From: Octopus vulgaris
Lineage: Eukaryota
NCBI GenBank assembly: GCA_951406725.2
Contig: OX597837.1
Coordinates: 20,212,001-20,276,000, forward strand
Reading direction: 5' to 3'
DNA length: 64,000 nt
A program made the position numbers. Below, piece after piece: positions 12,001-15,000 of this stretch. Positions within the stretch are counted from its first letter, which is position 1. Each line of letters begins with the position of its first letter.

Positions 12001-15000
12001 TCACCCTCGTATATTCTTTTACTTGTTTCAGTCATTTGACTGCGCCCATGATGGAGCACCGCCTCTAGTCGAACAAACCGACCCCAGGACTTATTATTTG
12101 TAAACTTAGTACTTATTCTATCGATCTTTTTTGCCGAACCGCTAATTTATGGGGACGTAAACACACCAACGTCGATTGTCAAGCGATGGTGGAGGACAAA
12201 CACAGACACAGACATATACATATATATAACTATAAATATGAATATATATATATATATATATATATATATATATATATATATATATATATACGACGGGCTT
12301 CTTTCAGTTTCTGTCTACCAAATCCACTCACAAGTCTTTGGTCAGCCCGAGGCTATAGTAGAAGACACTTGCCCAAGGTGTCTCACACAGTGACACTGAA
12401 CCCGAAACCATGTGATTGGTTAGCAAACTACTTACCATACAGCCATTCCTGTGCATATATATATATAAAGGGGGAAAAGTAAACACCCCCTTCAGTCATG
12501 TATGACCATAGGATTGCACCGAGACAGCTCCCCTCCGAGGAAATTCAGCGTGATACAGAGTGTGACAAAGCTGACCCATTGAATTACAGGTACATCTCAT
12601 TTTTGCCAGCTGAGTGGACTGGAGCAAAGAGAAATAGAATATCTTGCTCAAGAACAAAACTCGCCGCCGGGAATCGAACTTACGCTCATACGAACATGCA
12701 CACACACACATATACACACACACACACACACACACACACACACACACATACACACGCGCGCGCGCACGCACACATATGTATGTATATATGGTGATTGCTC
12801 CGTCTTCACGGATGACTGCAGTCTTCTTGTGCTTTCTCGTAGTCAATAGCCTCTCTTTTCGTCCATGACTTCTCAGATAACCATTCAGTCTCGTTGCAGA
12901 TTTGCATGTTTTGATCAAAGATGATAGAGGAAAGTCGTAACCTTCTCCGTACTTTTAATTCGTTAGATCTACACACATCACCACTCTTCTTTTACCATAG
13001 GACTTTCACCAGATGAGATGACGATTAAGGCCATCATTAAGAGACATCTGTGCCTCATGGGATTTTAGTAATAACCGTTTATACAACACGATACCTCTGA
13101 GTTTACAACACGAGTACCTCTGAGTTAAAGTGAGATGACCAGTTACCACGTAAATTTTCAGGTTTTACATCAGTGTCAACAGCATCTTGCAGTCCTTTAC
13201 TCCCATTAGTTTTACTGCATGTTCTGATACCGACAGGGTATTTCTGCGCCTTCGCATTCAGATGGGTTGTGGTCACATATGCTAACTAACCGATACTTGT
13301 GAGAGGTGCTACTACTCCAGGTCAGAGTAGACCCAAGAGCAATTCGAACTCCTCAAAACCCAGGAACTCCTAAAATAGATTCCAACTACGAAATGCAGTT
13401 TAAATCCATGCCCAGGGCATACATATATATTCACAACACTAACGTTGCTTTTAATTCATAATTGTATATAATATTACGTATGCCTAATCGTAGCATTGTA
13501 TCGTAACAACGGTCTTCCCAAAGACCTAGTGCCCCTAGCAAGCTCTCCGTAGAGTATGTCCTTGAGGATTCTGCCATCATCCATACTGCTAACATCTCCA
13601 AGCCATCTCATATGTTTTTGTGTGAGGAGTGCAAACATGCTTGGTATTCCTGCTTGCTTGAGGACATCTTTGTTGGGGACATGATTTTGTCATTTGATGC
13701 CAAGGATTTTCCGGAGGCAGCGCGGGTGAAAGACGTTTGCAAAAGGGACATTCAGAGATCAGTAAAAATTTTTGTCTAACCTCTCTCTTATTCTCTCTCT
13801 CTTTCTCTCTCTTTCTCTCTTTCTCTCTCTCTCTTTCTTTTTCTCTCTCTCTCTCTCTCTCTCTCTCTCTCTCTCTCTCTCTCTCTCTCTCTCTCTTTCT
13901 GTTGACTGTTTTCAACCATTACCATCACTAGTACCACGATCATCACCGCTACAACTGCCATGCACACATCATTCATACTTCTGACGCCTTTACCATCAAT
14001 ACCTTTGATTCCGCCGCCTTCCCCTCCACCACCATCACCACTGTCTTTCACATCGCTTATTATCAACATTGTCCCTGACTGCTTCAGCTACCACCACCAC
14101 CTCCACCACTACCATCACCACCGTCGCCTCCGCCTCTATCACAACTACAGCTCATACAATTACTATGACCTCATTACCGTCACAACTGTCATACCTTCTC
14201 TATGCCTACTATTACTCTCACCCCAACACGAGCTATAGTAGGAGTGCCAATGAATAGTAAGAGGTGGGGTCAAAGTGTGACACACTGCCACACAGAATGA
14301 GCAAGTGTCTTCTACTATAGCCTCAGTTCGACCAAAGCCTTATAAGTTGACTTGGTAGACGGAAACTGAAAGAAGCCCGTCATATATATATATATATATA
14401 TATATATATATATATATATATATATATATATAATAATAAATCTCTAAGCGAGGTATAAACAGTAACTGCTCTGTAATATAAGCGGGACCAGCCATCTGAA
14501 TGTGGCTAGGGACAGGGCGGGGTGGTGGGGGTGTTATTGATGCATTTAGCCCCAGGCGACTATAGACGTCACAGGAGAGCCGACACCATCACGGTGTCCG
14601 TGATGGTGTCGGCTAGCCACATTCAGATGGCTGGTCCCGCTTATAATATATATATATATATATATATATATATATATATATATATATATATATATATATA
14701 TATATATATATATATATATATATATATATATATATATATATATATATATATATATATATATATATATATATATATATATATATATATATATATATATATA
14801 TATATACATAGTTGTATATATATATGTGTGTGTATGTCGCTTGACAACCAATGTTGGTGTCTTTAGGTCTCCGTAACTTAGCGGTTCAGCAAAGTGACCG
14901 ATTGAATAAGTAGTAGGCTTACAAAGAATAAGTATTGGGGTCTATTTCTTGGACAAAAAACACATAAGGTGGTGCCCAGCATGGCCGCAGCCCATATATT

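What the first reader, a model, noticed from the sequence alone, without database searches (positions are those of the whole stretch)
14432..14645. Independent insertion made only of the element's repeat and 5' UTR, with snap-back inversions
Seen: this piece sits in a SINE's (TA)n and is homologous to 40175-~40335. It therefore runs about 45 nt past the repeat boundary into sequence that the main element has only in its 5' UTR. Its other end has a perfect 17-bp fold-back (14578-14614) followed by a 33-nt inverted copy of 14477-14509. Established: truncated LINE copies normally retain the 3' end. Inference: the repeat is intrinsic to the family, and priming can occur at variable points in 5'-UTR sequence, as expected for a circular or greater-than-unit-length template. 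The RT also appears to switch onto its own cDNA, as seen in Penelope inverted tails.
Basis: partly seen in the sequence, partly recalled or inferred. Interest (0 to 1): 0.7.

Follow-up and report, generated by a model that had tools for sequence, protein, structure and literature searches.

The report
Rearranged LINE 5'-end fragment in (TA)n
A 214-base scrap copied from the front end of a jumping gene sits inside a long TA-repeat, and its far end was completed by copying itself backwards; this looks like a one-off patch of a broken repeat rather than a new way of jumping.

Summary
Window 14432-14645 interrupts the internal (TA)n of a short interspersed repeat. It is collinear, at about 75% identity, with 40175-40344 of an intact minus-strand L1-superfamily LINE. 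That LINE carries a 207-nt direct repeat (R) at both ends. The piece holds 45 nt found only in the LINE's 5' UTR, then about 120 nt of R. It ends in a perfect 17-bp fold-back and a perfect 33-nt inverted copy of 14477-14509.

Every base right of 14598 can be derived by copying the left part backwards, with 2-3 nt of microhomology at each switch and no untemplated bases. Both outer ends fall in A/T-only patches next to pure (TA)n.

The self-templated snap-back geometry is supported. The enzyme is not identified. A circular or greater-than-unit-length template is not required, because a plain transcript or DNA copy of the main element's 5' end already contains R followed by the 5' UTR. No ribozyme was detected in R.

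The best reading is a single break-repair type capture in a fragile, expanded (TA)n. It would be either an endonuclease-independent-like retrotransposition or a templated repair. Its end was finished by iterated microhomology-primed synthesis.

With one locus and no genome of this organism to search, copy number, fixed ends and empty orthologous sites remain untested. Interest is modest.

The parts
14283..14380 (+). Left arm of the host short interspersed repeat
   Evidence: 9 other matches of 80 nt or more in the window. Aligned by eye with 6 other copies.
14382..14431 (.). Left (AT)25 tract of the host repeat's internal microsatellite
   Evidence: Sequence read. The other copies carry (TA)n(TG)n at this position.
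14432..14476 (-). Segment matching only the 5' UTR of the main LINE (40175-40219), just downstream of R in element sense
   Evidence: 38 of 45 identical without gaps. No match beside the 3' R copy.
14477..14598 (-). Segment matching the 3' part of repeat R (40220-40344 and 34320-34446)
   Evidence: 93 matches in 136 alignment columns, of which 25 are gap columns. BLAST E 1e-27 and 3e-17.
14578..14614 (.). Perfect fold-back: 17-bp stem with a 3-nt loop (TGT at 14595-14597). The right half (14598-14614) is the self-templated copy.
   Evidence: Exact reverse-complement check. Seen in the fold. The centre lies in a CGG-TGT-CCG mini-palindrome, inside a hairpin that the main element also has.
14613..14645 (+). 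Perfect 33-nt inverted copy of 14477-14509. It equals the last 33 nt of R in sense orientation. It is joined to the fold-back with a 2-nt overlap (CT), and 68 nt (14510-14577) are skipped.
   Evidence: Exact check. Repeat tool pair I23. Four-way alignment.
14646..14806 (.). Right (AT)n tract of about 80 units, pure
   Evidence: Sequence read. TRF row 14642-14825, period 2, 95% matches.
14839..14990 (+). Right arm of the host short interspersed repeat
   Evidence: 10 other matches of 100 nt or more. Copies printed.
40219..40425 (-). 5' copy of the 207-nt terminal direct repeat R of the main LINE
   Evidence: Direct repeat families D2/D3. 97.1% to the 3' copy.
40175..40218 (-). Part of the main LINE's 5' UTR that is shared with the insert
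34319..34527 (-). 3' copy of repeat R, the 3' end of the main LINE
34909..39903 (-). Coding body of the main LINE. ORF1 frame is 38905-39903, with a zinc-knuckle hit just below Pfam's cut-off. ORF2 frame is 34909-38313, with APE endonuclease, RT and zf-RVT.
   Evidence: Open frames. Pfam: RVT_1 6.6e-32, Exo_endo_phos 2.6e-11, zf-RVT 7.4e-10. Human L1 ORF2p in the PDB matches at E 7e-63 over residues 7-872.

Best explanation
The piece is a one-off, non-canonical insertion created while a break in a long, expanded (TA)n tract was repaired. Steps 1-3 below are what the sequence shows. The break, the order of events and the enzymes are inferred.

1. One DNA end at 14431, reading on the + strand, paired with an A/T-only patch of a template carrying the 5' end of an L1-superfamily LINE family. 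That patch lies about 45 nt downstream of repeat R in the 5' UTR. The end was then extended for about 167 nt, through the UTR segment and into R (14432-14598).
2. The growing end came off the template. It folded back on a 3-nt inverted repeat (CGG..CCG) and copied 14-17 nt of itself, which produced the 17-bp fold-back. It then slipped again, with a 2-nt overlap, to a point 68 nt further back and copied 33 more nt of itself.
3. The new end finishes in TTATA and was joined to the other (TA)n end.

The first template was either LINE RNA copied by the element's reverse transcriptase, which would make this an endonuclease-independent-like insertion, or a cDNA or DNA copy used by a repair polymerase. 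The snap-back steps could have been made by either kind of enzyme.

The source was a relative about 25% diverged from the intact copy in this window.
For: - The insert interrupts a microsatellite that is uninterrupted in 6 of 6 other printed copies of the host repeat.
- The piece has both R and 45 nt of 5'-UTR-only sequence, in the same order as the main element.
- All of 14599-14645 is accounted for by two reverse-complement copies of 14578-14594 and 14477-14509. There are no untemplated bases, and the overlaps are 3 nt and 2 nt (sequence).
- Both outer junctions lie in A/T-only patches: AATAATAAAT at 14432-14441 and TTATA at 14641-14645, each next to pure (AT)n.
- The 50 paired positions of the two inverted repeats show 0 differences, while the piece differs from the main LINE at 7 of 45 and more positions. 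By inference, the inversion is young, or was made at the time of insertion from a diverged source.
- The ORF2 is of L1 type.
- For human L1, 3'-truncated insertions without TSDs or tails, with end microhomology, at presumed breaks are described. Four criteria are listed in the passages read in PMC1920257.
- Patchwork templated insertions made by repeated microhomology priming on flanking sequence are described for polymerase-theta end joining (passages in PMC12426944).
Against: - There is only one locus, so recurrence cannot be judged.
- Target-site duplications cannot be read in (TA)n. An endonuclease-made nick is therefore not excluded, and a TA-rich site could suit an L1-type endonuclease.
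- The outer junctions are out of phase with the (AT)n: there is an AA step at 14431-14433 and at 14645-14646. Strict microhomology there is 0-1 nt, and only imperfect A/T pairing can be claimed.
- The passages read say templated insertions by polymerase theta are generally under 25 bp. The 33-nt segment, and above all the 167-nt first segment, are long for that enzyme.
- Of the 21 human non-classical L1 insertions, only 2 showed internal rearrangement (passage), so an inverted end is not typical of that class.
- The right arm ends within 0-3 nt of R's native 3' terminus. That could instead mean canonical priming on an R-terminated RNA at that side.
- No break, no RNA and no enzyme is observable in a sequence.
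Confidence: 0.45

Rival explanations
1. First reader's model. The LINE's reverse transcriptase, anchored on R, regularly primes at variable points downstream of R on a circular or greater-than-unit-length (tandem or read-through) RNA. It then switches onto its own cDNA. On this view the piece is a typical, endonuclease-dependent product of the family.
For: - The R-to-UTR junction is conserved between two copies about 25% apart.
- A 21-nt block forming a hairpin near R's 3' end is identical in all four R-derived segments, while the surroundings diverge. This fits a protein-recognition element.
- The main element has R at both ends.
- The snap-back geometry is real.
- Penelope-like elements show partial tandems, adjacent inverted 5'-truncated copies, 30-40-bp tails and a microsatellite bias (passages in PMC8557442). 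Head-to-tail dimers of transposable elements are the subject of PMC5932611 (search listing only).
Against: - One end point says nothing about variability.
- A unit-length RNA or a DNA copy of the main element's 5' end already has R followed by the UTR, so no circle or multimer is needed.
- No ribozyme was detected in R by Rfam at E up to 10 or by a loose HDV-like descriptor (16 hits against 8-55 in shuffles).
- No target-site duplication is readable.
- The element is an APE/L1-type LINE, not a Penelope-like element.
Confidence: 0.12
2. Deletion remnant. A full-length or long copy inserted in the (TA)n in minus orientation. Most of it was later lost by one or more deletions or replication template switches driven by the unstable (TA)n. 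The palindromic end arose as a secondary DNA rearrangement.
For: - Long pure (TA)n lies on both sides.
- Both breakpoints fall in A/T-only patches that could misalign with (TA)n.
- The 0 of 50 differences between the inverted arms, against about 25% divergence from the main LINE, would fit an old insert with a recent rearrangement.
Against: - It needs at least two events: a loss of about 5.9 kb on one side, and on the other side loss of the first ~87 nt of R together with two inverted copies. A single event explains everything.
- No other trace of the LINE body lies nearby. ORF1 and ORF2 matched only the main copy and an unrelated fragment at 55688-55945.
Confidence: 0.2
3. Fixed-end non-autonomous element. 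On this view the piece is a copy of a small hairpin-forming SINE-like or MITE-like family derived from the LINE's R and UTR region, with its own defined ends.
For: - The 33-nt perfect terminal-looking inverted repeats are flanked by TA.
- The element-sense 3' end stops at a TTA/ATT-like run, as microsatellite-tailed retroelements do.
- By eye, a tRNA-like A-box and B-box lie upstream of the main element's 5' R. This could mean that R also serves as the tail of a SINE.
Against: - The left inverted arm is internal. 45 nt that are collinear with the LINE lie outside it, so a TIR-bounded transposon would not carry them.
- A TA 'duplication' is meaningless inside (TA)n and next to an inverted repeat that itself ends in TA.
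- There is no second copy in the 64-kb window.
- The tRNA-like stretch was not recognised by ARAGORN (0 genes) or by Rfam (0 matches at E up to 1).
Confidence: 0.1
4. Assembly or sequencing artefact. The fold-back would come from a chimeric read in a hard-to-assemble (TA)n region.
For: Long pure (TA)n is hard to assemble, and fold-back chimeras are a known read artefact (my own knowledge, not a call).
Against: - The inverted part is small, has an internal 68-nt skip and has microhomology at each junction, unlike a simple read fold-back.
- The non-inverted part is a diverged copy, not a duplicate of the main element.
Confidence: 0.03

Closest known systems
Non-classical (endonuclease-independent) L1 insertions at DNA breaks (Sen et al. 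2007, PMC1920257; passages read)
   Same: A LINE fragment lacking the part normally used for priming, with no tail. Its ends fall at short or imperfect homology to the target, and it sits at a site prone to breakage. The element is of the L1 superfamily.
   Different: - Target-site duplications and the empty orthologous site cannot be checked here.
- The fragment comes from the extreme 5' end, whereas 18 of 21 human cases lay in the downstream half.
- It carries a two-step inverted end, whereas only 2 of 21 human cases were internally rearranged.
Templated insertions of polymerase-theta end joining (review PMC12426944; passages read)
   Same: A patchwork of segments copied from nearby sequence, each primed by minimal base pairing, made in iterated rounds before the ends are joined. 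This is the anatomy of 14599-14645.
   Different: The described size is generally under 25 bp. Here the segments are 14-17 and 33 nt, and the first segment of about 167 nt comes from an ectopic LINE template. The enzyme is unknown.
L1 twin priming (5'-inverted insertions). Described in the abstract lines of PMC2837659 in a search listing; the original description is recalled, not read.
   Same: A LINE-derived insertion in which one end is inverted relative to the other, with microhomology at the inversion junction.
   Different: - In twin priming the sense part keeps the element's 3' end and tail, and the inverted part comes from RNA upstream of it.
- Here the long part ends in the 5' UTR, and the inverted segments duplicate sequence already present in the long part.
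- Target-site duplications are not readable.
Penelope-like element insertion architecture: pseudo-LTRs, adjacent inverted 5'-truncated copy, 30-40-bp tail, microsatellite bias (Craig et al. 2021, PMC8557442; passages read)
   Same: - The main element has a terminal direct repeat that looks like a partial upstream copy.
- The insert lies in a microsatellite.
- A 33-nt inverted segment carrying the repeat's 3' terminus faces outward at the 5' side.
   Different: - The protein is an APE endonuclease plus an L1-type RT, not a GIY-YIG/telomerase-like RT.
- There is no hammerhead or other Rfam ribozyme.
- The paper states that such tails and tandem/inverted structures are not observed in LINE TPRT, and it ascribes them to the endonuclease.

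Membership tests
Non-classical / endonuclease-independent LINE insertion (four criteria of PMC1920257) | Truncation of the 3' region normally used for priming | tested here: met
   In element sense the piece ends 45 nt into the 5' UTR. ORFs, 3' UTR and 3' R are absent. Caveat: R is also the element's 3' end, and a 33-nt sense copy of R's terminus lies at the other side.
Non-classical / endonuclease-independent LINE insertion | Absence of target-site duplications | tested here: inconclusive
   Both flanks are pure (AT)n, so any duplication would be invisible.
Non-classical / endonuclease-independent LINE insertion | Absence of a poly(A) or other tail | tested here: inconclusive
   No A-run at either end. 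However, the intact copy has no poly(A) either, so this feature does not discriminate in this family.
Non-classical / endonuclease-independent LINE insertion | Insertion site unlike the endonuclease's preferred site | not testable with these tools
   The cleavage preference of this element's endonuclease is unknown. Only one intact copy is available, and it has no readable duplication.
Non-classical / endonuclease-independent LINE insertion | Ancestral empty site shown at the orthologous locus | not testable with these tools
   No genome of this or a related organism can be searched. The only stand-in is paralogous: 6 of 6 other copies of the host repeat lack the insert.
Twin-priming 5'-inverted LINE insertion | The sense segment retains the element's 3' end, and the inverted segment derives from RNA upstream of it | tested here: not met
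   The long segment ends in the 5' UTR. Both inverted segments duplicate sequence inside the long segment.
MITE / TIR DNA transposon | Inverted repeats form the two termini of the mobile unit | tested here: not met
   The left arm (14477-14509) is internal. 14432-14476 lies outside it and is still collinear with the LINE.
MITE / TIR DNA transposon | Multiple copies with the same ends | tested here: inconclusive
   0 further copies in the 64-kb window.
Penelope-like elements | Penelope-type RT with GIY-YIG endonuclease | tested here: not met
   Pfam gives Exo_endo_phos, RVT_1 and zf-RVT. The best solved relative is human L1 ORF2p, E 7e-63 over residues 7-872.
Penelope-like elements | Hammerhead ribozyme in the terminal repeat (canonical clades) | tested here: not met
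   0 Rfam matches at gathering score in the window. 0 matches at E up to 10 in 39850-40560, and no ribozyme family in 34250-34950.
LINE with a 5' HDV-like ribozyme (R2, RTE, L1Tc type) | [quoted passage not shown] | tested here: inconclusive
   No Rfam hit. My loose descriptor gave 16 hits in the sense strand, against 8-55 in 30 shuffles. Such ribozymes are poorly detected by sequence, so absence is not proven.
Polymerase-theta templated insertion | Inserted bases map to nearby sequence and each segment starts at minimal microhomology | tested here: met
   14599-14645 equals reverse-complement copies of 14578-14594 and 14477-14509, with overlaps of 3 and 2 nt.
Polymerase-theta templated insertion | Dependence on polymerase theta; usual size under 25 bp | not testable with these tools
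   The enzyme cannot be read from sequence. The segment sizes, 14-17 and 33 nt, sit at or above the usual range quoted.

The most novel reading that the evidence does not exclude
An APE-type, L1-superfamily LINE family replicates in a Penelope-like manner. It would carry a pseudo-LTR-like terminal repeat whose conserved 3' hairpin anchors the reverse transcriptase. DNA ends in A/T microsatellites could then prime not only at the RNA's end but also downstream of the internal (5') copy of the repeat, or on read-through or tandem transcripts. The enzyme would finish by snapping back on its own cDNA, leaving 30-40-nt inverted tails. The 14432-14645 piece would be the first caught example.
Probability: 0.12. 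Interest if true: 0.7.

Novelty: new member of a known kind. Interest (0 to 1): 0.3.

Why it matters
If the piece is a break-repair product, it is one more example, in a non-model animal genome, of two known things. Long (TA)n tracts break, and such breaks are patched with retroelement-derived sequence and snap-back synthesis. That is useful for annotation, because fragments like this mimic small hairpin elements or microRNA precursors. Sub-threshold miRNA-model hits were indeed produced here.

It would matter more if a genome-wide survey showed many such R-plus-5'-UTR pieces with varied ends. That would show an L1-type enzyme using an internal copy of its recognition repeat as a start site. 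It would link LINE and Penelope-like insertion architectures, which the literature read here treats as distinct.

Tried and rejected
**Ribozyme in R**
- Rfam at gathering score over the whole window gave 0 matches.
- Rfam at E up to 10 over 39850-40560 gave 0 matches.
- Rfam over 34250-34950 gave one snoRNA-model hit at E 2.5 and nothing else.
- Rfam over 14200-14950 gave only sub-threshold miRNA, AT-rich and generic hairpin hits. The best was mir-584 at 40.2 bits, against a gathering score of 80.
- My own loose HDV-like descriptor gave 16 hits in the sense strand of the main 5' region, against 8-55 in 30 shuffles.
- By eye I saw no hammerhead core.

**Target-site duplication of the main LINE**
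- I searched for words of 6-16 nt shared between the 3' flank and the region upstream of the 5' R. Only 6-7-mers turned up.
- A local alignment of the 3' flank to the 5' UTR was reached by 147 of 500 shuffles for the full flank, and by 250 of 1000 for its first 25 nt.
- I therefore dropped my idea that the 5' UTR patch and the 3' flank are a duplication.

**tRNA-like head upstream of the 5' R (about 40555-40628, minus strand, seen by eye)**
- ARAGORN found 0 genes and Rfam found 0 matches at E up to 1.
- A pol III read-through model would make the insert's end a terminator. I rejected it because a T4 run lies earlier, in the stretch between the tRNA-like part and R.

**Structural readings rejected**
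- MITE reading of the whole piece: rejected because 45 collinear nt lie outside the inverted repeat.
- Canonical twin priming: rejected because the inverted segments duplicate the sense part.
- A model in which the right arm is an independent canonical 3'-end copy and the rest was copied from an antisense strand is possible, but it needs a second template.

**Other checks that led nowhere**
- Other long (TA)n tracts (8622-8898, 49211-49424) hold no captured fragments.
- A consensus fold of the two diverged copies gave 31 pairs, 2 of them with compensatory changes. That is too few sequences to mean much.
- In PMC13526784 the terms foldback, fold-back, hairpin, inverted duplication and template switch had 0 occurrences.

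**Left unchecked**
- The genome-contig scan was not used, because that collection holds only bacterial and archaeal genomes.
- The closed collections (metagenome contigs, viral contigs) and the absence of any eukaryotic genome collection leave copy number and end positions unchecked.
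Full report
**What is there**

The finding lies inside one copy of a short interspersed repeat. The two arms of that repeat (14283-14380 and 14839-14990) recur together elsewhere in the window. I printed 6 other copies. In all 6 the arms are separated only by a (TA)n(TG)n stretch of roughly 60-100 nt.

In the host copy that stretch has three parts: (AT)25 at 14382-14431, a 214-nt foreign piece at 14432-14645, and about 161 nt of pure (AT)n at 14646-14806. 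So the statement that the piece sits in a repeat's (TA)n is correct. I did not test whether the host repeat is a true SINE.

**The reference element**

On the minus strand, 34319-40425 holds an apparently intact LINE.
- An ORF1 frame lies at 38905-39903. It has a zinc-knuckle hit just under Pfam's cut-off.
- An ORF2 frame lies at 34909-38313, with APE endonuclease, reverse transcriptase and zf-RVT domains.
- Human L1 ORF2p is by far the best solved relative, at E 7e-63 over residues 7-872. R2 proteins match the RT core only, at E 1e-25.
- Among the 64 database relatives, the few named ones are algal, plant and fish L1-like proteins.

I therefore call it an L1-superfamily element. It has no poly(A) at its 3' end.

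Its two ends carry a 207-nt direct repeat, R, at 34319-34527 and 40219-40425 (97.1% over 209 columns). In element sense the order is R, then about 390 nt of further 5' UTR, then the ORFs, the 3' UTR and R again.

I found no target-site duplication for this element above chance. I therefore cannot say whether the 5' R arrived in the same event as the body.

**Homology of the piece**

14432-14609 matches 40175-40344 (75.3% over 182 columns, E 3e-29) and 34322-34446 (72.6% over 135 columns, E 3e-17). R-like sequence occurs nowhere else in the window.

The first 45 nt (14432-14476) align without gaps to 40175-40219 (38 of 45 identical). That stretch lies beyond the repeat boundary and has no counterpart next to the 3' R. 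The piece therefore spans the junction between R and the rest of the 5' UTR.

That junction is shared by two copies about 25% apart. So it is inherited or recurrent in the family, not an accident of the intact copy.

A 21-nt block that forms a hairpin near R's 3' end is identical in all four R-derived segments, while the surroundings have diverged.

**The inverted end**

- 14578-14594 and 14598-14614 are exact reverse complements (17 of 17, loop TGT).
- 14477-14509 and 14613-14645 are exact reverse complements (33 of 33).
- The structure is far beyond chance. The DNA fold is -67 kcal/mol, against -26.5 +/- 2.9 for shuffles, with 0 of 200 shuffles folding as well.

Read along the + strand, collinearity with the LINE runs to about 14598. 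After that every base is a copy of earlier sequence in reverse complement.
- First comes a copy of 14594 back to 14578.
- Then, with a 2-nt overlap (CT) and a skip of 68 nt, comes a copy of 14509 back to 14477.
- The first turn sits on a pre-existing CGG-TGT-CCG mini-palindrome, inside a hairpin that the main element also has.
- There are no untemplated bases.

The right part contains no information that the left part lacks. The left part, in contrast, has the 68 nt and the 45-nt UTR segment that the right part lacks. The economical reading is therefore that a growing 3' end on the + strand copied itself twice.

**The outer junctions**

Both lie in A/T-only patches: AATAATAAAT at the left and TTATA at the right. 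The right-hand patch is the only (TA)-like patch the backward copy meets. It coincides within 0-3 nt with R's own 3' terminus.

Two readings of that coincidence are possible.
- Joining to the (TA)n simply happened at the first A/T patch.
- The right arm is a canonically primed copy of an R-terminated RNA. This reading needs a second, antisense template for the rest of the piece, so I rank it lower.

At both junctions the (AT) phase is broken by an AA step. Strict microhomology is therefore at most about one base, and only imperfect A/T pairing can be claimed.

**Age**

The 50 paired positions of the two inverted repeats show no difference. With 0 of 50 differences, the divergence between arms is below about 6% at the 95% level (simple Poisson bound, my inference).

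The piece differs from the intact LINE at 16% of ungapped positions and also by several indels. Two explanations fit: the piece is young and came from a diverged relative, or the inversion is a later event.

**Mechanism**

The best-supported account is a single non-canonical event at a break in an expanded, fragile (TA)n.
1. A DNA end primes on an A/T patch of a template carrying the LINE's 5' end.
2. About 167 nt are copied.
3. The end comes off the template and snaps back twice at 2-3-nt homologies.
4. The new end is joined to the other side of the break.

If the template was RNA, this is the analogue of the endonuclease-independent, 3'-truncated L1 insertions described in the human genome. 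I read passages of PMC1920257 listing four criteria: 3' truncation, no duplications, no tail, and an atypical site. Only the first can be scored as met here. The others are masked by the (TA)n or unknown for this family.

The two-step backward copying has the anatomy that the polymerase-theta literature calls templated insertions: iterated priming at minimal homology on nearby sequence. Those are usually shorter than 25 bp (passages of PMC12426944). The enzyme cannot be identified from sequence.

**What is not supported**

- A circular or greater-than-unit-length template is not required. The intact element itself has R directly upstream of the shared UTR segment.
- Variable priming cannot be inferred from one end point.
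- The ribozyme assumed in the proposed check was not found by Rfam or by a loose HDV-like descriptor. Such folds can escape both methods.
- The Penelope comparison is a resemblance in architecture only: terminal repeat, microsatellite site, and a 33-nt inverted segment with the repeat's 3' end facing outward. The protein is not of that class. The passages read attribute the Penelope tails to endonuclease action and say they are not seen in LINE insertion.

**Rivals**

- A deletion remnant of a longer copy remains possible, but it needs at least two events.
- A fixed-end hairpin family is contradicted for the whole piece by the 45 collinear nt outside the inverted repeat. It has no second copy in the window, but it cannot be excluded genome-wide.
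- Canonical twin priming does not fit, because the inverted segments duplicate the sense part.
- An assembly artefact is unlikely given the microhomology-bounded two-step structure.

**Limits**

Everything about recurrence rests on three R copies in 64 kb.

Papers were seen as follows.
- Passages found by term search: PMC8557442, PMC1920257 and PMC12426944.
- Term search with zero hits: PMC13526784.
- Search listing only: PMC2837659 and PMC5932611.
- The original descriptions of twin priming and of endonuclease-independent L1 insertion in cultured cells are recalled, not read.

**Verdict**

This is a real and neatly resolvable structure. It is most likely a sporadic break-repair capture of a LINE 5'-end fragment with self-templated completion. 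That makes it a new example of known processes, and of modest interest unless a genome-wide survey shows it to be recurrent.

Noticed in passing
34319-34527 and 40219-40425 (minus strand): An intact APE/L1-type LINE carries a 207-nt direct repeat at both ends (97% identical). The Penelope paper read here states that LINEs lack terminal repeats. It could be a partial upstream copy (pseudo-LTR-like), a shared SINE/LINE tail, or true terminal redundancy. No target-site duplication was found to decide between these.
   Followed up: partly
14489-14509, 14613-14633, 34332-34352, 40232-40252: A 21-nt block forming a 6-bp hairpin near R's 3' end is identical in all four R-derived segments, although the surrounding sequence differs by about 25%. 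This suggests a constrained element, for example a protein-recognition hairpin.
   Followed up: partly
about 40555-40628, minus strand: By eye, tRNA-like A-box and B-box motifs lie about 130 nt upstream of the 5' R, in the same orientation as the LINE. This raises the possibility of a tRNA-derived SINE whose tail is R. ARAGORN and Rfam did not recognise it, and it has no second copy in the window.
   Followed up: partly
5280-5597, 12040-12396, 15349-15657, 42600-42927, 48427-48766, 53047-53357 and others: A roughly 310-nt interspersed repeat family with an internal (TA)n(TG)n microsatellite is very dense in the window: at least 7 two-armed copies in 64 kb. Microsatellite length varies widely between copies.
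   Followed up: partly
16366-18942; 40701-41532; 61266-62388; 63115-63677: There are very long microsatellite arrays: (ACGC)n of about 1.5 kb directly followed by (GTAT)n of about 1.1 kb, (CTT)n of about 0.8 kb just upstream of the LINE locus, (TCA)n of about 1.1 kb, and (TAT)n of about 0.56 kb. They explain the six-frame 'ORFs' in the mechanical ORF list.
   Followed up: no
55688-55945 (+): A short fragment encodes a stretch 36% identical to the C-terminal 91 residues of the LINE's ORF2. It is a remnant of a different, distantly related LINE.
   Followed up: no
38318-38953 (minus strand): A 211-codon open frame, rich in basic residues, lies between ORF1 and ORF2 in another reading frame. It overlaps the end of ORF1 and has no Pfam match. 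It could be chance, a frameshifted extension or a linker.
   Followed up: no
14480-14649: The inverted arms make the piece score as a microRNA-precursor-like hairpin: mir-584 model at 40.2 bits and mir-451 model at 30.9 bits, both far below gathering scores. Such rearranged fragments could be mis-annotated as miRNA genes.
   Followed up: yes
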